The notes under the pieces are model-generated. The model saw nothing but the letters and a program-made list of their open reading frames with translations, was not told the DNA's origin and made no database searches. A stretch of DNA of 64,000 nt, taken from sequence record MT129654.1; one strand, given 5' to 3'. This DNA is from Escherichia phage MN04. Shown here piece by piece: positions 47,552 to 59,901 of the stretch (position 1 is the first letter of the stretch; every line of letters begins with the position of its first letter). The position numbers and the translations under genes were made by a program.

Positions 47552-50263
47552 ATGCAAGAATTCTATTTGACAGTCGAACAAATCGGTGATAATATTCTCG
47601 AACGTTACATCGATAAAAATGGTAAAGAACGTAGTCGTGAAGTTCCTTACAAGCCTACAATGTTTATGCATGCCAACCCAGAGCAAGCCGTAAAATATAT
47701 TGACATCTACGGTAAGGGCTGTGTTAAGAAAGAATTCGATTCAATGCGCGATGCTTCTCAGTGGATGAAGCGCATGGACGATATGGGTCTCGAAGCCCTT
47801 GGTATGGACGACTATAAATTAGCCTATTTGTCTGATACCTATCGTAAAGAAATCAAGTATGATTCTTCCAAGATTCGTATTGCTAACTTCGACATCGAGG
47901 TAACATCTCCTGATGGATTCCCTGAACCTGCTCAGGCTAAACATCCTATCGATGCCATTACTCACTACGACTCGATTGATGATAAATTCTATGTATTTGA
48001 CCTTTTAGTTTCACCTTATGGTACGGTCGAAGAGTGGTCGATTAAAATCGCTGAGAAACTCCAAGACGAAGGTGGTGACGAAGTTCCACAAGAAATCATT
48101 GACAAAATCGTTTATCTTCCGTTTAATTCTGAAGAAGAAATGATGCTTGAGTATCTGAATTTCTGGCAACAGAAAACTCCTGTGATTTTGACTGGATGGA
48201 ATGTTGAATCATTTGACGTGCCATACGTTTATAACCGTCTTAAAAATCTGTTTGGCGAGAACACTGCTAAGCGATTAAGCCCACATCGTAAGACTCGTGT
48301 TAAAGTTATCGAGAATATGTACGGTGTTCGTGAAATTATTACACTGTTCGGTATCTCTGTTCTGGATTATATCGACCTTTATAAAAAATTCAGCTTTACC
48401 AACCAGCCTTCTTATTCTCTGGATTATGTTTCTGAATATGAATTGAAAGTAGGTAAGTTGAAATATGATGGTCCTATCTCCAAGTTACGTGAGACGAACC
48501 ACCAACGATATATTTCCTATAACATTATCGACGTATATCGTGTTGTACAGATTGATATGAAACGCCAGTTCATTCTTCTGAGTTTGGACATGGGTTACTA
48601 TGCCAAGATGCAGATTCAGTCGGTGTTCAGTCCAATTAAGACTTGGGACGCTATTATCTTTAATAGCCTTAAAGAACAGGGTAAAGTTATTCCTCAGGCC
48701 AAATCGCATGCGGTTCAACCTTATCCGGGTGCTTTCGTTAAGGAACCGATTCCTAACGCGTACAAATATGTAATGAGTTTCGACCTTACATCTCTGTACC
48801 CGAGTATCATTCGACAAGTGAATATAAGCCCAGAGACCATCGCAGGGACATTCGCTAACGCACCGATACATGAATATATTGCCGGAACTGCTCCGCGTCC
48901 TAGCGACACCTACAGTTGCTCTCCTAACGGCATGATGTACTATAAAGACCGTGATGGTGTGATTCCTACAGAAATCACGAAGGTGTTCTTACAGCGTAAA
49001 GAACATAAAGGTTATATGCTTGCAGCTCAACGTAACGGTGAGTTAATTAAAGAAGCATTAGAAAATCCTAATCCGTCTGTTGATAGCCCACTGGATATCG
49101 ATTATCGTTTCGACTTCTCTGACGAAATCAAAGCCCAGATTAAAAAATTGTCAGCATCTTCTTTAAAAGAAATGTTATTCAAAGCCGAACGTACTGAAGT
49201 CGCAGGTATGACTGCTCAGATTAACCGTAAGTTGCTTATCAACTCCCTTTATGGTGCACTTGGTAACGTATGGTTCCGTTACTATGACCTCAGGAACGCA
49301 ACTGCAATCACATTGTTTGGTCAAATGGCCCTCCAATGGATTGAACGTAAGGTTAACGAATATCTGAATAGCGTGTGTAAGACTGAAAACCAGAAGTTCG
49401 TGCTTTATGGTGATACCGACTCCATTTATGTTAAGGCTGATGCAATTATCAATAAAGTAGGCGAAGATAAATTCCGTGATACTAACCACTGGGTTGACTT
49501 CTTAGATAAATTTGCACGTGAACGTATGGAACCAGCTATTGATGCAGGCTTCCGTGAGATGTGTGAATACATGAACAATAAACAGCACTTGATGTTCATG
49601 GACCGAGAAGCTATCGCTGGTCCTCCACTTGGTTCTAAAGGTCTTGGTGGATTCTGGACAGGCAAGAAACGTTATGCACTGAACGTTTGGGACATGGAAG
49701 GTACTCGTTATGCCGAACCACACTTGAAAATCATGGGTCTCGAAACCCAGAAATCAAGTACACCTAAAGCGGTTCAGAAAGCACTGAAAGAATGCATCCG
49801 TCGTATGCTTCAAGAAGGCGAGGCCTCTTTGCAAGAGTATTTCAAACAGTTTAATAAGGAATTTAACGAATTAGACTATGTAAGCATTGCTGCAGTATCC
49901 AGTGCTAACAACATTGAGAAATATAATGAAGGTGGTTTCCCTGGTTCTAAATGTCCGTACCACATCAAAGGTTGCTTAGCTTACATGCGTGCTTCTGCTG
50001 GTGATTTGACAATGCCTCGAATCGTTGATGGTGAAAAGGTATATGTACTGCCACTTAAAGAAGGCAACCCGTTCGGTGAAGCTTGTATGGCATGGCCGTC
50101 AGGTATTGAACTTCCGATTCAGATTCGTGACCAAGTCCTCCGTTGGATGGACTACAACGTACTGTTCCAAAAGACCTTTATCAAACCTCTGACCGGTTTT
50201 ACTGAGTCTGCTAAAATCGACTACGAGAAAAAAGCAACATTATTTGACATGTTCGACTTTTAA
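47552..50263 (+). CDS. 43: DNA polymerase gp43 (family B, 903 aa)
   Basis: MQEFYLTVEQIGDNILERYIDKNGKERSREV... plus exonuclease FDIEV and polymerase motifs SLYPSII, KILINSLYGALG, YGDTDS; closest to remembered RB69 gp43. Confidence 0.96.
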   Translation: MQEFYLTVEQIGDNILERYIDKNGKERSREVPYKPTMFMHANPEQAVKYIDIYGKGCVKKEFDSMRDASQWMKRMDDMGLEALGMDDYKLAYLSDTYRKEIKYDSSKIRIANFDIEVTSPDGFPEPAQAKHPIDAITHYDSIDDKFYVFDLLVSPYGTVEEWSIKIAEKLQDEGGDEVPQEIIDKIVYLPFNSEEEMMLEYLNFWQQKTPVILTGWNVESFDVPYVYNRLKNLFGENTAKRLSPHRKTRVKVIENMYGVREIITLFGISVLDYIDLYKKFSFTNQPSYSLDYVSEYELKVGKLKYDGPISKLRETNHQRYISYNIIDVYRVVQIDMKRQFILLSLDMGYYAKMQIQSVFSPIKTWDAIIFNSLKEQGKVIPQAKSHAVQPYPGAFVKEPIPNAYKYVMSFDLTSLYPSIIRQVNISPETIAGTFANAPIHEYIAGTAPRPSDTYSCSPNGMMYYKDRDGVIPTEITKVFLQRKEHKGYMLAAQRNGELIKEALENPNPSVDSPLDIDYRFDFSDEIKAQIKKLSASSLKEMLFKAERTEVAGMTAQINRKLLINSLYGALGNVWFRYYDLRNATAITLFGQMALQWIERKVNEYLNSVCKTENQKFVLYGDTDSIYVKADAIINKVGEDKFRDTNHWVDFLDKFARERMEPAIDAGFREMCEYMNNKQHLMFMDREAIAGPPLGSKGLGGFWTGKKRYALNVWDMEGTRYAEPHLKIMGLETQKSSTPKAVQKALKECIRRMLQEGEASLQEYFKQFNKEFNELDYVSIAAVSSANNIEKYNEGGFPGSKCPYHIKGCLAYMRASAGDLTMPRIVDGEKVYVLPLKEGNPFGEACMAWPSGIELPIQIRDQVLRWMDYNVLFQKTFIKPLTGFTESAKIDYEKKATLFDMFDF

Positions 50264-50265
50264 GT

Positions 50266-50300
50266 GTTTACATACCACATGGAACGTGGTAGTATCCTTC
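50266..50300 (+). promoter_or_regulatory. T4-type early promoter
   Basis: GTTTAC 50266-50271, hairpin accac/gtggt, -10 TAGTAT, cctatcaa core. Confidence 0.5.
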
Positions 50301-50325
50301 CTATCAACTACATGAGGAAATTATA

Positions 50326-50562
50326 ATGGAAGCTTTAATCGTTAGTGCTGGTGTTTTAGGATTTGGTTCTCTGGTTATTATGTTCATTGGTTACTTTTTA
50401 CCATGGATTCTGGCTCTTCTGCGAGGCACTCGTAGCAATGTTGGAATCTTCTTCCTTAATCTCCTGTTAGGATGGACTATGATTGGTTGGGTAGTGGCTT
50501 TAATCTGGGCTATCGTCGCTGAACGTAAATCAAACGCACAAATCATTATCGTTAAACAATGA
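50326..50562 (+). CDS. small two-helix inner-membrane protein (78 aa), positional counterpart of Imm
   Basis: Two hydrophobic helices; first gene after 43 as T4 imm. Confidence 0.45.
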   Translation: MEALIVSAGVLGFGSLVIMFIGYFLPWILALLRGTRSNVGIFFLNLLLGWTMIGWVVALIWAIVAERKSNAQIIIVKQ

Positions 50563-50696
50563 AGATAATTATTTTATTTCTTATAATGGCTGCCTTTACC
50601 ATTTATTGGGCAGTGGCAATTCCTCCAATGATTCCAACATTAATCATGGGATGGATTATTCTTATAGCACAAATTAAGTATAACTGTTTTAATTGA
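50559..50696 (+). CDS. small membrane protein (45 aa)
   Basis: ATGA-coupled; hydrophobic; under the ORF-track cutoff. Confidence 0.35.
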   Translation: MKIIILFLIMAAFTIYWAVAIPPMIPTLIMGWIILIAQIKYNCFN

Positions 50697-50703
50697 GGAT
50701 ATT

Positions 50704-51204
50704 ATGAAAAAGTTAATTATCGCAATGAGTATGCTCCTATCAGGTTGCGCAGTCCAATACGGTGATGCAGTTTCGGCTGATGAAGTTGGTAAAGCTCGTA
50801 TCGCAGCTGAACAGAAACAATTCGACGGCGAAATGAAATTCCGTGCCGGTTCTGGACTTGTGTATACCCGAGCTAATAATCAATGTGGTAATAACTGTGC
50901 AAAATATGCTCAAAGGGAAATCGAATTCCAACGTGAACAAGAGTCTAAGCGTGAAGCGGTACTAGCCAAACACCAGGCAGAAATGAAGCGCCAAGATGAT
51001 TTGTACAAAAAGCAGAAACTGTATTCTATGTGTGTAAACCATATCAATTTACAGATTTCTGTCCATGAGGCTCGTTATTACGAAATGCTCGAAACCGAGA
51101 GCTTCGATAAGGCTCGTGATTATAAGAAACAAATCAACAAGCTTAAGACCAAAGTGCCTGCTGCAGTAGAACAGTGCATGGAATACGGTAAAGATAAGAT
51201 TTAA
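50704..51204 (+). CDS. predicted lipoprotein (166 aa)
   Basis: Signal peptide with lipobox LLSGC; charged coiled-coil-like mature part. Confidence 0.55.
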   Translation: MKKLIIAMSMLLSGCAVQYGDAVSADEVGKARIAAEQKQFDGEMKFRAGSGLVYTRANNQCGNNCAKYAQREIEFQREQESKREAVLAKHQAEMKRQDDLYKKQKLYSMCVNHINLQISVHEARYYEMLETESFDKARDYKKQINKLKTKVPAAVEQCMEYGKDKI

Positions 51205-51240
51205 GCAATAGAAATTTATTAAAAATAGTGTATAATGTAC
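51200..51240 (+). promoter_or_regulatory. candidate promoter for the modification operon (-10 only)
   Basis: TATAAT at 51231-51236 preceded by TG; no clear -35. Confidence 0.3.
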
Positions 51241-51264
51241 CTACATTCACTTGAGGAACAGATA

Positions 51265-52938
51265 ATGAAAAAGGTTGTTATTTTAGGCGCAGGTCTTGGC
51301 TCACGGTTGTATCCAATTACTAACGAAATCCCGAAGGTATTGGTTAACTATAAACAACATACGGTATTAAAGCATTTGTATGATTTGTATAGTAACCAAT
51401 CAGATGAAATTATTCTGGTTATTCACAGCAAATTTAACGACCTCGTTAAAGGCTATATTAAATCCATTAACATGATTACTGGTGATAAGCCTAAATTCAC
51501 TATTCGTAACGTTGATGTTGCTAATGGTTCAGCTCATGCTATCGATTGCATTGCCGAAGATATCATTGGCCATAACGTCCTGTTTAACTGGTGTGACATC
51601 ATTCCTGAAGGTCATAAAGTTGAGTGGGGTAACGACTACTGTTATACCTATGGAACTGACTGTCGTTTTACATTTGAAGAACCGTACTTACGTGAAATTG
51701 GCACTGGTGGTGGCGTAGTTGGTTTATATCAGGTGGCTAATTGGACAGGTTTCGACCGTTCTAATTACGGTGAAGACCTTGCTGATAACCTGGATTCAAT
51801 GGTCTATTTGACTGAACGTAAACTGGACTTTGTAGTTGATGTCGGTGACAAATTGAAACTGGCTAAGGCCCATGAAGATTCTGAAATTAACCGTGAATTT
51901 AATAAATTAGAATTCACCGAGAATCTGGCTATTAAAGTACCAACTAACGAATTAGGTAAAGAAATTCAATCTAAAGAAATCAATTGGTATAATTCTATTG
52001 ATTCTGAATTCGTTCCTAGCATTGTAGACTTTTCTCCAGGCGAATTCATTAAAATGGAACGTATCTTTGGTCGGACCATGGCAGATGCCTACCGGTTTAT
52101 GTCCAAAGAAACTAAAGTCCTCATGGTTTATAAGGTCATTAGTGCATTACGTTCATTCGGTGGAACTATTGATAATCCGTCCGATGAACAATGGTATTCC
52201 GATGTTAAGAAAGAAGTATTGGACAAGGTCCTTATTCGTAATGCTTCTATTGCCGGATTGATTGAAGGCTTTGCTCCACAAGGCATTACCCATGTTAACG
52301 ATTTCAAAGTAGGCGACCCTGAAAAACTTCTCCGCCATGCACTAGAAATTCTGTCTGAACATAAAGAACCGTACCAACTTATTCATGGCGACCCACACTA
52401 CAGTAATATTATGCTGTCGGACGAAGGTGATATTAAAATCATCGACCCACGTGGTTATTTCGGTAATAGTTCTAAAGGCCCTGCGATTTATGATGAAGCT
52501 AAGGTGCTTTATTCTATCGATGGCTATGACAAATTTAACTCAGACCCTCTATGGGGTGGATTAACCCGTAACGGAACTCGTGTATTCGTTGATATTGAAA
52601 AGGTTATGCCTTTAGACGATATCCCTATGTGCACATTTAAGCACAAGCTCTGGATTGCTGTTATTTGGATGGCTCTGGCAGGTTACTTTAAGAATAACCC
52701 TCTGAAAGCTCTGGGTGCTTATTATAACGGTTTGTACCAACTGAGTGTGCTGCTGAAGCGGCATCCTCGTAAGCGTAAGCTTATTACAGGTGAATTTGTC
52801 GATGAAGTTCGTGACCCTATCACGGCCCAAATTATTACTCGTTGTCCTGATAAGTGGGTTTTGCTTGACCAGGAAACTGGTGTAAAATATAAACCTACAG
52901 GTTCTACTGAACTCCACAAACAATGGAAGAAAATTTAA
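51265..52938 (+). CDS. bifunctional sugar-1-phosphate nucleotidyltransferase (N-terminal) / APH-fold kinase (C-terminal), 557 aa
   Basis: N-terminus VVILGAGLGSRLYPITNEIPKVLV (GxGxRxxPxT...PKxLV signature of RmlA/LicC-type NTases); C-terminal HGDPHYSNIML and IIDPRGYFG (Brenner and DFG-like motifs of choline/aminoglycoside/anomeric-sugar kinases). Confidence 0.65.
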   Translation: MKKVVILGAGLGSRLYPITNEIPKVLVNYKQHTVLKHLYDLYSNQSDEIILVIHSKFNDLVKGYIKSINMITGDKPKFTIRNVDVANGSAHAIDCIAEDIIGHNVLFNWCDIIPEGHKVEWGNDYCYTYGTDCRFTFEEPYLREIGTGGGVVGLYQVANWTGFDRSNYGEDLADNLDSMVYLTERKLDFVVDVGDKLKLAKAHEDSEINREFNKLEFTENLAIKVPTNELGKEIQSKEINWYNSIDSEFVPSIVDFSPGEFIKMERIFGRTMADAYRFMSKETKVLMVYKVISALRSFGGTIDNPSDEQWYSDVKKEVLDKVLIRNASIAGLIEGFAPQGITHVNDFKVGDPEKLLRHALEILSEHKEPYQLIHGDPHYSNIMLSDEGDIKIIDPRGYFGNSSKGPAIYDEAKVLYSIDGYDKFNSDPLWGGLTRNGTRVFVDIEKVMPLDDIPMCTFKHKLWIAVIWMALAGYFKNNPLKALGAYYNGLYQLSVLLKRHPRKRKLITGEFVDEVRDPITAQIITRCPDKWVLLDQETGVKYKPTGSTELHKQWKKI

Positions 52939-53321
52939 TGTCGCATCGAGTAGAAAATAAGCCACATTTATGTTTTGATATCGATAACACAATCACGATT
53001 TGGAACCATGACCGTGATTATGAGAACTTTAAACCGGACACCGAAATGGTGTCCATGATTAATAAGCTTTATGATGAAGGGTACGAGATTACATTGTTCA
53101 CCGCGCGTGGCATGACTTCATGTGGCCCAGGTCGAATCTTGGTTGAAGTAGTTCCTGCATTGGTTAAGAACCTTGAAAAGATTGGATTGAAATATCATAA
53201 TCTGCTTACACATAAGCCGAGTTATACTTTTATCATCGATGACCGAGCAATCCGTCCCGACCACTTTAAAGAAATGGTTCGTGAAGGAACTCTTGATAGT
53301 TATAAGGCCTATCATCCATGA
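52938..53321 (+). CDS. HAD-superfamily phosphatase (127 aa)
   Basis: Motif I CFDIDNTIT (DxDxT), motif II TLFTAR, motif III HKPS, motif IV IIDDRA; TAATG coupling. Confidence 0.65.
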   Translation: MSHRVENKPHLCFDIDNTITIWNHDRDYENFKPDTEMVSMINKLYDEGYEITLFTARGMTSCGPGRILVEVVPALVKNLEKIGLKYHNLLTHKPSYTFIIDDRAIRPDHFKEMVREGTLDSYKAYHP

Positions 53322-53854
53322 ATCCAAAAATCATTGTTATAGACGGCCCGGATAATTCCGGGAAGTCCACTTTAATTAAAAATCTGTTATCCAATAAGAA
53401 ATACCGCCTTATTGATTTTCCTAAAAAGATTAATGGTAAGTGTATTTCATTAGGAACTGATAACGATAAGGCTTTAGTTGAAACTCTGTATAAGTTTTTA
53501 GACCCTAATTTCGTTTATATCCTTGACCGTGGTTATCCAAGTAATATTGTTTACTCAGGATTCCTTCGTGGTGAAATGGACCCTTATGTAGAACTGGAAG
53601 ATTGGAAAGGGTTTAAATCTGAATTTAACGTTATCGAGGTTATTTTAACTCGCAATCCATTAGACGAAGACTTCGAAGACGACCTTATTAAATTAACCAA
53701 AGATGAGTTCAACCTAACTATCCGGCAATACGAAACATGTTTTGAAAACGTGTTTAAAATCTTAAATCATGACGGCCATAATAATTTGCTTAATGTTGAT
53801 ATGGTAGAATTAAAACGTCTGAACGAATATATTGAAAATAAGGTGAATAGATGA
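53318..53854 (+). CDS. P-loop nucleoside monophosphate kinase, thymidylate-kinase family (178 aa)
   Basis: IVIDGPDNSGKSTL Walker A and ILDRGYPS...VYSG (DRY-like motif); ATGA coupling. Confidence 0.6.
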   Translation: MNPKIIVIDGPDNSGKSTLIKNLLSNKKYRLIDFPKKINGKCISLGTDNDKALVETLYKFLDPNFVYILDRGYPSNIVYSGFLRGEMDPYVELEDWKGFKSEFNVIEVILTRNPLDEDFEDDLIKLTKDEFNLTIRQYETCFENVFKILNHDGHNNLLNVDMVELKRLNEYIENKVNR

Positions 53855-54549
53855 AACACATTACCGCTGTTAGTTTTGAAAATGCATTTAAACAAATGAA
53901 CGAAGAAATCCTGGAAGCTCCACAGTTTGCAGTTGATTCTCGTATCGGACGTTGTTATGAAATTGGTTCTGCTTCGGTAGAAGTACTGGATGCAAGCACC
54001 TATAAATTCACCGATCCTCGTATTAATCGTATTAGTTATGAATATGCCGAATCTTTCTGGAAGTTTATGATTTCTGGTGGTACTGACGCCGCCGAAGCAT
54101 TTAAGGAATACCCTAATGTTGCTAAGTTCATTGATAAGCCGAAAAGTGACGTATTGCCTGCAAACTTCAACACTTTCTATGGACCTCGAATTGTGGCCCA
54201 ACTCCCAGCCTTACTTAAAGAGCTTAAAGAAAAGCCTAACTCAAGACGCGTTGTGTTCCAGATTCTCCAAGAACAAGACCAAGCCCTCCTTGATTCTGAC
54301 GAATCCTTAGAATATCCTTGCACCGATTCGGTAACGTATTATATTCGTGATGGACGTCTGTATGCACACACTCATATGCGTTCACAGAACTGTGCTATTG
54401 TTATGCAGCTGGATTTCTATCTGCAGGGTAAACTGATGGCATTTATTGCTGAACAGTGCGGTGTCGGTTTAGGTACATATTCCCACACCATGGTAAGTGC
54501 ACACGTGTTTGAACGTGATTTTGACTACGTCCGAGGTTTCCTGAAATGA
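53851..54549 (+). CDS. 42: pyrimidine hydroxymethylase of the thymidylate-synthase fold, positional and sequence counterpart of T4 gp42 dCMP hydroxymethylase (232 aa)
   Basis: NSRRVVFQI, YPCTDSV (catalytic Cys), MRSQNCAIVMQLDF with Asp at the position that is Asp in T4 dCMP hydroxymethylase and Asn in ThyA. Confidence 0.75.
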   Translation: MKHITAVSFENAFKQMNEEILEAPQFAVDSRIGRCYEIGSASVEVLDASTYKFTDPRINRISYEYAESFWKFMISGGTDAAEAFKEYPNVAKFIDKPKSDVLPANFNTFYGPRIVAQLPALLKELKEKPNSRRVVFQILQEQDQALLDSDESLEYPCTDSVTYYIRDGRLYAHTHMRSQNCAIVMQLDFYLQGKLMAFIAEQCGVGLGTYSHTMVSAHVFERDFDYVRGFLK

Positions 54550-59308: not shown

Positions 59309-59548
59309 ATGAATATTGTATTAATGAAGCCAACCCCTAGCTCTTTTTGGAATAAATCTTTTGGTAAGCATAATATGTTTATCCAACGCACCGTAAGCAG
59401 CTGGGAACTAGTTCTTTCAGTAGGTCATAATGATTATGAACAGGAATATGTAGAGTTCTTCGAATTTCCTGTGAAGCCTACTAAGCGTCAGATTCGTCAG
59501 ACCAAACGTAAATTCCGTAAAATTTATTTGGAAGATTCGTTAAAATAA
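59309..59548 (+). CDS. small protein with basic C-terminal tail PTKRQIRQTKRKFRK (79 aa)
   Basis: ORF; paralogous tail to the ORF at 60339. Confidence 0.5.
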   Translation: MNIVLMKPTPSSFWNKSFGKHNMFIQRTVSSWELVLSVGHNDYEQEYVEFFEFPVKPTKRQIRQTKRKFRKIYLEDSLK

Positions 59549-59607: not shown

Positions 59608-59901
59608 ATGAAAAAGTTATTAATCGCAGCAATCCTTACAGTAGCATCATGTGGCACGGCTCCGGTAACTGCCGGATTGGATAAAGACCTTTGTGAATGG
59701 TCTATGACTGCAGACCAAGAGTCAGTTGAACATCAGATTTATGCCGATATCATGAACATCACTAAACGTGACCGTCCTGACATGGTTAAAGAAGTGTCCG
59801 ACCAATTAGCTTCAACCGGTGTTATGCAGTACAACTATGTTTTGTATTGTGACGCTAATTTCGATAACAAAAACATTGTTAAAGAGGTTACAGGTGAGTA
59901 A
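59608..59901 (+). CDS. sp: Spackle, periplasmic superinfection-exclusion protein (97 aa)
   Basis: Signal peptide plus DKDLCEWSMTADQ...VMQYNYVLYCD matches remembered T4 Sp (61.3); length identical. Confidence 0.8.
   Translation: MKKLLIAAILTVASCGTAPVTAGLDKDLCEWSMTADQESVEHQIYADIMNITKRDRPDMVKEVSDQLASTGVMQYNYVLYCDANFDNKNIVKEVTGE

What the first reader, a model, noticed from the sequence alone, without database searches (positions are those of the whole stretch)
50326..51204. Imm-like membrane protein followed by a lipoprotein directly after the DNA polymerase gene
T4 has the superinfection-immunity gene imm after gene 43. Here a 78-aa two-helix membrane protein occupies that place, followed by a 45-aa hydrophobic peptide and a 166-aa lipoprotein (lipobox LLSGC). 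Phage lipoproteins in this kind of position often mask receptors or block DNA entry, so this pair may form a second exclusion system in addition to Spackle at 59608.
Basis: partly seen in the sequence, partly recalled or inferred. Interest (0 to 1): 0.45.

Follow-up and report, generated by a model that had tools for sequence, protein, structure and literature searches.

The report
T4-type imm locus with Imm.1-like lipoprotein
This is the already-annotated superinfection-immunity gene (imm) of a JS98-like T4-type coliphage with two conserved small neighbours, a 45-residue membrane peptide and a lipoprotein related to T4 Imm.1; the locus is ordinary, but the untested lipoprotein keeps turning up next to imm.

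Summary
The three ORFs exist exactly as described and are real genes (dN/dS 0-0.11 within the genus). The window is a Dhakavirus, 99.2% identical to phage JS98, where they are annotated as imm, orf44 and orf43.

- **78-aa protein:** a true Imm orthologue. It scores 65 bits on Pfam Imm_superinfect and is 43% identical to T4 Imm. R33 and W50, which T4 Imm needs to exclude T4, are conserved. A 2026 preprint shows T4 Imm binds the tape-measure protein gp29.
- **45-aa peptide:** the conserved 42.1/Y02C gene. It is present but unannotated in the T4 reference genome.
- **166-aa lipoprotein:** belongs to phrog_1754, as does T4 Imm.1, which is itself a lipoprotein lying directly after gene 43. Similarity to Imm.1 is detectable only over the N-terminal 31-42 columns.

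T4 therefore carries the same trio in a different order, behind the same conserved promoter-like element. Lipoprotein and imm lie within one gene of each other in 7 of 10 contexts examined, and in Mosigvirus they sit together next to spackle.

No sequence or fold match suggests a function for the lipoprotein. Receptor masking is unlikely. An accessory role in exclusion is a reasonable but untested guess (about 0.3). Imm alone is sufficient in T4. Low novelty.

The parts
50267..50295 (+). Promoter-like element TTTACA-17 nt-TAGTAT, with TG before the -10 hexamer. It lies 4 nt after the gene 43 stop and is the putative early promoter of the imm / 42.1 / lipoprotein unit.
   Evidence: Consensus scan. 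The number of hits in the region is not above chance (7 found against 4.9 +/- 2.1 expected). The support is conservation: GTTTACA...TAnTAT plus ATCAACTAC aligns with the equivalent site after gene 43 in T4 (upstream of imm.1) and in VR7, and partly in CHI14 and PEi20. Function as a promoter is inferred.
50326..50562 (+). imm: 78-aa inner-membrane superinfection-immunity protein, with the RBS GAGGAA at 50314-50319.
   Evidence: Pfam PF14373 Imm_superinfect scores 65.1 bits against a cutoff of 27.9. phrog_1039 'immunity to superinfection', 3e-32. 43% identical to T4 Imm over the full length, E 2e-22. R33 and W50 are invariant across five genera. Annotated as imm in JS98.
50559..50696 (+). Homologue of gene 42.1 (T4 Y02C): a 45-aa hydrophobic peptide, translationally coupled to imm through an ATGA overlap.
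   Evidence: phrog_3610, 1.1e-21. 53% identical over 30 aa, E 2e-13, to an unannotated 49-aa ORF between T4 imm and 42. Named 42.1 in VR7. Precomputed Pfam hits label the homologue PF26865 Phage_T4_Y02C. 520 phage records. Invariant residues I15, Y16, P22, M24, P26, T27, W32, Q38, C43, N45. dN/dS 0.04.
50704..51204 (+). 166-aa predicted lipoprotein (JS98 orf43), in phrog_1754, the PHROG family that also contains T4 Imm.1. The signal peptide and lipobox occupy 50704-50748 (Cys15).
   Evidence: phrog_1754, 1.9e-52; T4 Imm.1 matches the same PHROG at 6.1e-43. hhalign against the Imm.1 family gives probability 96% but covers only the N-terminal 31-42 columns. G51, Y54, C110 and C158 are invariant, and G14/C15 are kept in at least 90% of sequences. 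AF2 model (pLDDT 77.9): helix 25-38, beta-hairpin 42-56, long helix 63-131, helices 134-149 and 151-162. dN/dS 0.08-0.11.
51209..51236 (+). Next promoter-like element (TAGAAA-16 nt-TATAAT). It marks the downstream end of the three-gene unit, ahead of the 567-aa sugar-nucleotide gene.
   Evidence: Consensus scan, 10 of 12 matches. Function not tested.
59608..59901 (+). sp (Spackle), the other known exclusion gene of the phage. Listed for context; it is not part of the locus.
   Evidence: Pfam PF25676 T4_Spackle, 143.8 bits.

Best explanation
The region is the Dhakavirus version of the T-even imm locus. A conserved promoter-like element just after DNA polymerase gene 43 is followed by three tightly packed genes.

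1. imm. Its product sits in the inner membrane. By homology with T4 Imm, it binds the helical-bundle domain of the tape-measure protein (gp29) of a superinfecting phage. The phage then cannot open a conduit through the inner membrane, and its DNA is not delivered to the cytoplasm.
2. 42.1/Y02C. A 45-residue membrane peptide of unknown role, translationally coupled to whichever gene precedes it.
3. A lipoprotein of the PHROG family that also contains T4 Imm.1. It is predicted to be exported, lipid-modified at Cys15 and, lacking Asp at +2, sorted to the inner leaflet of the outer membrane. That would leave a long helical stalk and a small, probably disulfide-stapled (C110-C158) helical head in the periplasm.

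Shown here: gene identities, homology, conservation and synteny.

Inferred: the promoter function, the lipidation and sorting, the disulfide, and any function of genes 2 and 3.

My best guess for the lipoprotein, at about 0.3, is a non-essential periplasmic accessory of envelope-level exclusion or protection acting alongside Imm and Spackle. It would target a conserved tail-tip or envelope component rather than a receptor.
For: Genome identity:
- 99.2% nucleotide identity to JS98, where the genes are annotated imm, orf44 and orf43.

Imm:
- Pfam 65.1 bits (cutoff 27.9), phrog_1039 3e-32, and 43% identity to T4 Imm at E 2e-22.
- R33 and W50 are invariant across five genera. In T4, R33A and W50A weaken exclusion, and Imm co-purifies with the gp29 fragment (preprint 10.64898/2026.03.06.709160).

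Same trio in T4:
- T4 order is 43, imm.1 (lipobox LAGC), imm, a 49-aa ORF, then 42.
- The small ORFs are homologous (E 2e-13).
- Both lipoproteins match phrog_1754 over their full length.
- hhalign gives probability 96%.
- A family profile built without Imm.1 scores T4 Imm.1 at 29.9 bits. A weak second segment aligns the Cys positions.

Shared promoter-like element after gene 43 in the window, T4 and VR7.

Linkage of the lipoprotein to imm in three arrangements:
- 43-imm-42.1-lipoprotein in the window/JS98, VR7 and the P0026 contigs.
- 43-lipoprotein-imm in T4, S16 and the P0019 contigs.
- Imm.1-like, imm and sp together at a different genome site in Mosigvirus ATK47.

Purifying selection on all three genes.
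Against: Against full homology with Imm.1:
- Pairwise BLASTP gives E 6.2.
- The window protein has no hit to Pfam DUF5481 at E <= 1, whereas T4 Imm.1 hits it at 5e-72.
- hhalign covers only the signal peptide plus about 16-27 mature residues.
- A scan of 1.84 billion representatives with the family profile did not retrieve Imm.1-type proteins.

Against functional coupling with Imm:
- Imm alone excludes T4.
- Imm-family genes occur in many siphoviruses and mycobacteriophages, whereas every lipoprotein-family hit listed was in a T4-like phage.
- CHI14, PEi20 and OL828291 carry the lipoprotein without an adjacent imm. The first 50 kb of CHI14 has no detectable imm.

Against any functional inference from structure or known systems:
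- No PADLOC hit.

Caveats on lipidation:
- T4 Spackle is reported as a soluble 75-aa mature periplasmic protein. The window Spackle carries a lipobox-like VASC in its signal peptide, so the motif alone is not proof.
- One family member (P0028) has an ordinary signal peptide without the Cys.
Confidence: 0.8

Rival explanations
1. The lipoprotein works in the envelope but has nothing to do with superinfection exclusion. It might act in lysis timing or lysis inhibition, outer-membrane or peptidoglycan stabilisation, or defence against a host or competitor envelope factor. On this view it lies near imm only because both sit in the variable stretch of early genes downstream of gene 43.
For: The lipoprotein occurs after gene 43 without an adjacent imm in CHI14, PEi20 and OL828291. 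No imm was detected in the first 50 kb of CHI14. Imm is sufficient on its own in T4. The region between 43 and 42/uvsX differs in gene content between genera. No homology to any exclusion protein was found.
Against: The Imm.1-like gene and imm lie side by side at a different site in Mosigvirus, next to spackle. Adjacency survives in three different gene orders. Chance co-residence in a variable region does not predict either.
Confidence: 0.35
2. The lipoprotein is a receptor-masking exclusion protein of the T5 Llp or phi80/N15 Cor type. Anchored in the outer membrane, it would bind the periplasmic face of the phage's outer-membrane receptor and block adsorption or triggering.
For: It has a lipobox and predicted outer-membrane sorting. 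There is a weak PHROG hit to Cor (phrog_1119, E 0.014). Llp is an established precedent (PMC9586334, listed).
Against: The Cor hit covers residues 1-18 only, which is the signal peptide. T4-type Imm.1 is at least 95% identical in 502 Tequatrovirus records, including T2 at 97.6%; from my own knowledge T2 and T4 use different receptors. The Dhakavirus protein is under plain purifying selection (dN/dS about 0.09). The mature protein is about 150 aa and mostly a long helix, unlike the small Llp and Cor proteins. From established T4 biology (my knowledge), superinfecting phage still adsorb to infected cells and eject DNA into the periplasm.
Confidence: 0.08
3. The 166-aa protein is not lipidated. 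Like Spackle, it would be a soluble periplasmic protein released by signal peptidase I, and the 'lipobox' would be incidental.
For: T4 Spackle is reported as a 75-aa mature soluble periplasmic protein, and the window Spackle has a lipobox-like VASC in its signal peptide. Family member P0028 has a signal peptide with no Cys. G-C-A would also fit a -3/-1 signal peptidase I site.
Against: The Cys at the end of the hydrophobic core, preceded by Gly, is kept in at least 90% of 31 diverged family members. It is also kept in T4 and Mosigvirus Imm.1. That is hard to explain if the residue were discarded with, or irrelevant to, the signal peptide.
Confidence: 0.12
4. The lipoprotein is an outer-membrane spanin subunit, or another component of the lysis machinery.
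For: It is a phage-encoded outer-membrane lipoprotein with periplasmic Cys residues.
Against: No inner-membrane spanin partner with a periplasmic coiled coil lies next to it. It sits behind an early-type promoter-like element among replication genes. It is large and helical, not short and proline-rich. From my own knowledge, T4 spanins are pseT.3/pseT.2, located elsewhere.
Confidence: 0.03

Closest known systems
T4 Imm (superinfection immunity protein; Pfam PF14373 Imm_superinfect)
   Same: Full-length orthologue: 43% identity, the same length class, the same two hydrophobic blocks and the same genomic neighbourhood after gene 43. R33 and W50 are conserved. The expected mechanism is the same: binding the tape-measure protein to block DNA translocation.
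   Different: Here it follows gene 43 directly, whereas T4 has imm.1 in between. Specificity for this phage's own gp29 is presumed and was not tested.
T4 Imm.1 (Pfam DUF5481, PF17578; phrog_1754), function unknown
   Same: Both are lipobox proteins in the imm locus downstream of gene 43 and behind the same promoter-like element, and both fall in the same PHROG. They share an N-terminal mature motif (GC-x-x-Q-G-x-x-V-x-x-x-x-V-G-K) and two conserved C-terminal Cys.
   Different: 166 aa against 125 aa. The window protein has no hit to the DUF5481 model. Similarity is undetectable beyond about 42 columns. It has an extra beta-hairpin (G-[ST]-G-x-x-Y) and a QCGNNC motif that T4 Imm.1 lacks. It lies downstream of imm, not upstream.
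T4 42.1 / Y02C (PF26865; phrog_3610)
   Same: Clear homologue with an invariant P-x-M-x-P-T...W...Q-x-x-x-x-C-x-N core. It has the same ATGA coupling to the upstream gene.
   Different: None of note. No function is known for any member. In RB69, CHI14 and PEi20 it is coupled to an arabinose-5-phosphate isomerase gene instead of imm.
T4 Spackle (gp61.3)
   Same: An early, exported, helical protein with a disulfide that acts in the periplasm. In Mosigvirus sp lies immediately after the Imm.1-like and imm genes.
   Different: No sequence similarity, and the window has its own Spackle at 59608. Spackle's target, the gp5 lysozyme, is known; the lipoprotein's target is not.
T5 Llp / Cor receptor-blocking lipoproteins
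   Same: Phage-encoded outer-membrane lipoproteins made early.
   Different: No homology beyond the signal peptide. The window protein is much larger and helical. Its conservation pattern does not track receptor use.

Membership tests
Imm (PF14373 Imm_superinfect; T4 Imm orthologues) | Matches the Pfam model above the gathering score | tested here: met
   65.1 bits against a cutoff of 27.9, E 5.1e-18, covering profile positions 2-42 of 42. phrog_1039, 3e-32.
Imm (PF14373 Imm_superinfect; T4 Imm orthologues) | Full-length similarity to the characterised T4 protein | tested here: met
   43% identity over 81 columns, E 2e-22. 66% identity to S16 Imm.
Imm (PF14373 Imm_superinfect; T4 Imm orthologues) | Residues needed for exclusion in T4 (R33 and W50) | tested here: met
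   Both are invariant in the window, T4, S16, ATK47 and VR7. The mutant data come from the preprint.
Imm (PF14373 Imm_superinfect; T4 Imm orthologues) | Small integral membrane protein | tested here: met
   Two hydrophobic blocks, with Kyte-Doolittle 15-residue windows above 1.6 starting at residues 2-19 and 39-53. No dedicated topology predictor was available.
Imm (PF14373 Imm_superinfect; T4 Imm orthologues) | Confers exclusion and binds the tape-measure protein | not testable with these tools
   Needs plating, DNA-entry and pull-down experiments.
T4 Imm.1 / DUF5481 (PF17578) | Matches the DUF5481 Pfam model | tested here: not met
   No hit at E <= 1 for the window protein. T4 Imm.1 scores 239 bits.
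T4 Imm.1 / DUF5481 (PF17578) | Remote homology by profile methods | tested here: inconclusive
   Same PHROG (phrog_1754: 1.9e-52 and 6.1e-43). hhalign probability 96% but over only 31-42 N-terminal columns. hmmsearch 29.9 bits. Not retrieved in the database-wide scan.
T4 Imm.1 / DUF5481 (PF17578) | Lipobox signal peptide | tested here: met
   LLSGC in the window, LAGC in T4, LTGC in ATK47. Lipidation itself was not tested.
T4 Imm.1 / DUF5481 (PF17578) | Location in the imm locus | tested here: met
   Within one gene of imm in the window, VR7, T4, S16, ATK47 and two metagenomic lineages.
42.1 / Phage_T4_Y02C (PF26865, phrog_3610) | Family profile match and similarity to the T4 ORF | tested here: met
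   phrog_3610, 1.1e-21. BLASTP against the T4 ORF, E 2e-13. The local Pfam copy gave no hit, but precomputed hits label a 47-aa homologue in the same gene position PF26865.
Llp / Cor receptor-masking lipoproteins | Sequence or fold similarity to Llp or Cor | tested here: not met
   Only phrog_1119 at E 0.014, over residues 1-18, which is the signal peptide. No structural match.
Llp / Cor receptor-masking lipoproteins | Specificity that follows the receptor the phage uses | tested here: inconclusive
   T4-type Imm.1 is 97.6% identical in T2 and at least 95% identical in 502 records. That argues against receptor tracking, but the receptor assignments come from my own knowledge, and the test was run on the T4 subfamily rather than the window protein.
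Spackle (PF25676) | Matches the Spackle model | tested here: not met
   No hit for the lipoprotein. The true Spackle is at 59608-59901.
Known anti-phage defence proteins (PADLOC) | Match to any PADLOC model | tested here: not met
   No hit for any of the three proteins at E <= 1.

The most novel reading that the evidence does not exclude
The Imm.1-family lipoprotein, possibly together with the 42.1 peptide, is an uncharacterised third component of T-even superinfection exclusion. It would be an outer-membrane-tethered periplasmic protein that cooperates with inner-membrane Imm, and with Spackle, to intercept the tail tip or tape-measure protein. Exclusion would then be a system spanning the whole envelope, not two independent single proteins.
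Probability: 0.2. Interest if true: 0.6.

Novelty: already known. Interest (0 to 1): 0.27.

Why it matters
As it stands the finding re-discovers an annotated gene (imm) and two annotated hypothetical genes of a published phage, so it adds nothing new on its own.

The useful residue is a testable lead. A lipoprotein family that includes T4 Imm.1 stays within one gene of imm in several T-even genera, despite rearrangement. In Mosigvirus it sits with both imm and spackle. If it contributes to exclusion or envelope protection, it would add a component to a classic system whose mechanism is only now being solved.

The analysis also flags a conserved small gene (42.1/Y02C) that is missing from the T4 reference annotation.

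Tried and rejected
- **Direct homology to T4 Imm.1.** BLASTP was not significant (E 6.2) and there was no Pfam DUF5481 hit. Only profile methods link the two, and only at the N-terminus.
- **PDB sequence search with the family profile.** Nothing below E 0.15.
- **Database-wide HMMER scan.** Only 22 clusters, of which 21 are short (89-192 aa); those examined look like T4-type phage proteins. No member is characterised.
- **PADLOC and NCBIfam.** No meaningful hits.
- **Literature.** No paper in the searchable library gives a function for imm.1. One paper speculates about exclusion and says Imm.1 is absent from the RB69 group (PMC5885020). Miller et al. 2003 was not held, and the CRISPRi-ART paper does not mention imm.1.
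- **Rejected ideas.** Receptor masking, spanin and Spackle-like inhibitor are rejected as memberships. The reasons are given under the rival explanations and membership tests.
- **Promoter scan statistics.** Hit counts are not above the shuffled expectation. Only cross-genus conservation supports the site at 50267.
- **Minus-strand ORFs inside the region** (50391-50546 and 50740-50940). I treated these as spurious but did not search them.
Full report
**Observation.**
- They are tightly packed. The second start overlaps the first stop in an ATGA. The third start lies 7 nt after the second stop, which is overlapped by a GAGGA sequence.
- The 78-aa protein has two long hydrophobic blocks, and the 45-aa protein is almost wholly hydrophobic.
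- The 166-aa protein starts MKKLIIAMSMLLSGC, a textbook lipobox with Ala at +2.
- All three are real genes. Each matches a PHROG family: 3e-32, 1.1e-21 and 1.9e-52. tblastn finds them in 1664, 520 and 131 phage records. Within the genus dN/dS is 0-0.11.

**What genome this is.** The 1.1-kb region is 99.2% identical to Escherichia phage JS98 and 95-99% identical to about 40 other records, those listed being Dhakavirus phages. In JS98 the three genes are annotated imm (gp045), orf44 ('similar to RB69 orf054c') and orf43 (hypothetical). They lie between DNA polymerase gene 43 and an RB69-like sugar-nucleotide/dCMP-modification cluster. The observation therefore re-discovers annotated genes.

**The 78-aa protein is Imm.**
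- It scores 65.1 bits on Pfam Imm_superinfect against a cutoff of 27.9.
- It is 43% identical to T4 Imm over the full length (E 2e-22) and 66% identical to S16 Imm.
- A 2026 preprint (10.64898/2026.03.06.709160) reports that T4 Imm co-purifies with a fragment of the tape-measure protein gp29 and contacts its helical-bundle domain. The R33A and W50A mutants exclude T4 less well, and the 83-aa Imm expressed alone from a plasmid excludes T4.
- R33 and W50 are invariant at the same positions in the window, T4, S16, ATK47 and VR7.
- By homology, the window protein blocks inner-membrane DNA translocation of superinfecting relatives through their tape-measure protein. This is inferred, not tested.

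**The 45-aa peptide is gene 42.1/Y02C.**
- It belongs to phrog_3610.
- It is homologous to RB69 ORF054c and to a 49-aa ORF in the T4 imm-42 gap. That ORF is not annotated in NC_000866 or AF158101.
- VR7 names it 42.1. Precomputed Pfam hits call it Phage_T4_Y02C.
- Ten residues are invariant across six phages.
- Its start overlaps the stop of the upstream gene (ATGA) in every case examined. The upstream gene is imm in T4, VR7 and the window, but an arabinose-5-phosphate isomerase in RB69, CHI14 and PEi20. It is therefore a conserved gene of this position, not an obligate Imm partner.
- JS98 annotates it from an internal ATG (36 aa). The homologues and the ATGA overlap favour the 45-aa form.

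**The lipoprotein: family.**
- It is a small family. A HMMER scan of 1.84 billion representatives found only 22 clusters; 21 of them are short (89-192 aa), and those examined look like T4-type phage proteins.
- In the phage collection it occurs in Dhaka-, Gapriver-, Kanagawa-, Winkler- and Gelderlandvirus, and in T4-like phages of Enterobacter, Kosakonia, Pectobacterium and Erwinia.
- Across 31 diverged members G51, Y54, C110 and C158 are invariant. G14 and C15 are kept in at least 90%.
- AlphaFold2 (pLDDT 77.9) predicts a flexible tether, a short helix, a beta-hairpin (42-56) and the QCGNNC motif. These are followed by a roughly 70-residue helix (63-131) and two helices that pack back on it. 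C110 and C158 are plausibly disulfide-linked; that is my inference.

**The lipoprotein: relation to T4 Imm.1.** In T4 the gene directly after 43 is imm.1, not imm. Imm.1 is itself a lipobox protein (MKIAILVIALGLAGC...).
- For homology:
  - T4 Imm.1 and the window protein both match phrog_1754 over their full length (6.1e-43 and 1.9e-52).
  - hhalign gives probability 96%.
  - A family profile built without Imm.1 scores it at 29.9 bits. A weak second segment aligns the Cys residues.
- Against, or limiting:
  - Pairwise BLASTP is not significant.
  - The window protein does not hit Pfam DUF5481, which T4 Imm.1 defines.
  - The hhalign match covers only the signal peptide plus about 16-27 mature residues.
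- I rate true, divergent homology at about 0.7. At minimum the two are positional and architectural counterparts.

**Synteny.** T4 carries the same trio in permuted order. The contexts examined are:

| Arrangement | Where seen |
|---|---|
| 43, imm.1, imm, 42.1, 42 | T4 |
| 43, lipoprotein, imm | S16, metagenomic P0019 lineage |
| 43, imm, 42.1, lipoprotein | window/JS98, VR7, metagenomic P0026 lineage |
| Imm.1-like, imm, sp (different genome site) | Mosigvirus ATK47 |
| lipoprotein after 43, no adjacent imm | CHI14, PEi20, OL828291 |

- In ATK47 the Imm.1 homologue is 122 aa, has the lipobox LTGC and is 32% identical to T4 Imm.1 (E 1e-18). It lies directly upstream of imm, and both lie next to sp. 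tblastn hit coordinates put the two genes side by side in vB_Eco_mar005P1 as well.
- This corrects the statement in PMC5885020 that Imm.1 is absent from the RB69 group.
- The first 50 kb of CHI14 has no detectable imm.
- Overall, lipoprotein and imm lie within one gene of each other in 7 of 10 contexts, in three different arrangements.
- A promoter-like element (GTTTACA, 17 nt, TAnTAT, then ATCAACTAC) directly after gene 43 is conserved between the window, T4 and VR7. That suggests one early transcription unit (inferred).

**Mechanism and rivals.**
- Imm needs no partner: it is sufficient in T4, and Imm-family genes occur in many phages outside the T4-like group.
- For the lipoprotein, the repeated linkage to imm and the Mosigvirus imm.1-imm-sp cluster make an accessory periplasmic role in exclusion or envelope protection the best single guess (about 0.3).
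- An unrelated envelope role is about as likely (0.35).
- Receptor masking of the Llp/Cor type is unlikely (0.08).
  - The Cor hit is signal peptide only.
  - T4-type Imm.1 is 97.6% identical in T2 and at least 95% identical in 502 records, although, from my own knowledge, these phages use different receptors.
  - dN/dS is about 0.09.
- Lipidation is itself unproven.
  - Spackle in this window has a lipobox-like VASC, yet T4 Spackle is reported as a soluble 75-aa mature protein.
  - One family member lacks the Cys.
  - Near-universal conservation of G-C nevertheless argues that the Cys matters.

**Verdict.** It missed that this is simply the T4 imm.1/imm/42.1 locus in another order, that Imm is already the known partner of Spackle, and that nothing supports receptor masking. 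Novelty is low, since the genes are annotated in a 99%-identical published genome. The one lead worth an experiment is the Imm.1-family lipoprotein's persistent association with imm and sp.

Noticed in passing
L002 4228-4377 (-), which is NC_000866.4 26227-26376: The T4 reference genome does not annotate the conserved 49-aa ORF (42.1/Y02C) between imm and gene 42. tblastn shows 'none' under the match in many T4-like records.
   Followed up: yes
window 50559-50696; JS98 locus L001 5387-5497; VR5 locus L010 551-691: JS98 annotates the small ORF from an internal ATG (36 aa). Homologues of 47-49 aa and the ATGA overlap favour the 45-aa start. VR5 does not annotate the gene at all, although an intact 46-aa ORF is present.
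   Followed up: yes
L008 2035-2403 (Mosigvirus ATK47) and neighbours: A 122-aa Imm.1 homologue (32% identity, lipobox LTGC) lies directly upstream of imm and sp. A published statement that Imm.1 is missing from the RB69 group (PMC5885020) therefore appears to reflect divergence, not absence.
   Followed up: yes
window 59608-59901: Spackle is confirmed (PF25676, 143.8 bits). Its signal peptide contains a lipobox-like V-A-S-C, yet T4 Spackle is described as a soluble 75-aa mature periplasmic protein. This is a caution for calling lipoproteins from the motif alone.
   Followed up: partly
window 51235-54549: An RB69-like sugar-nucleotide/dCMP-modification cluster. It holds a 567-aa fusion of a nucleotidyltransferase and a kinase-like domain (phrog_4098), which is split into ORF053c and ORF052c in RB69. 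It also holds a 132-aa gene (JS98 product name 'phosphoheptose isomerase'), a 178-aa gene (JS98 product name 'thymidylate kinase') and a 232-aa gene like RB69 ORF048c ('similar to dCMP hydroxymethylase'). This suggests an arabinosyl-hmC-type DNA modification (from my own knowledge of RB69).
   Followed up: no
window 59309-59548: A 79-aa ORF just upstream of sp matches Pfam DUF7279 (70.8 bits). Function unknown.
   Followed up: no
Annotations of T4 imm.1 and of the lipoprotein in other records: Product names look like automatic mislabels with no support from any search here. T4 imm.1 is labelled 'iduronate sulfatase' in NC_000866 and IME340. The JS98-type lipoprotein is labelled 'capsid and scaffold protein' in PSD2001, and the same label appears among the features under the match in phage NC-G.
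   Followed up: no
P0004 and P0005 compared with the window lipoprotein: Two metagenomic variants are nearly identical to the window protein over the first 100 or so residues. They diverge sharply in the C-terminal helical head, a mosaic pattern that hints at module exchange in that part of the protein.
   Followed up: no
L002 5171-5184 (T4, just after gene 43): T4 has a terminator-like hairpin between gene 43 and the promoter-like element upstream of imm.1. No such hairpin was found in window 50000-51500.
   Followed up: no
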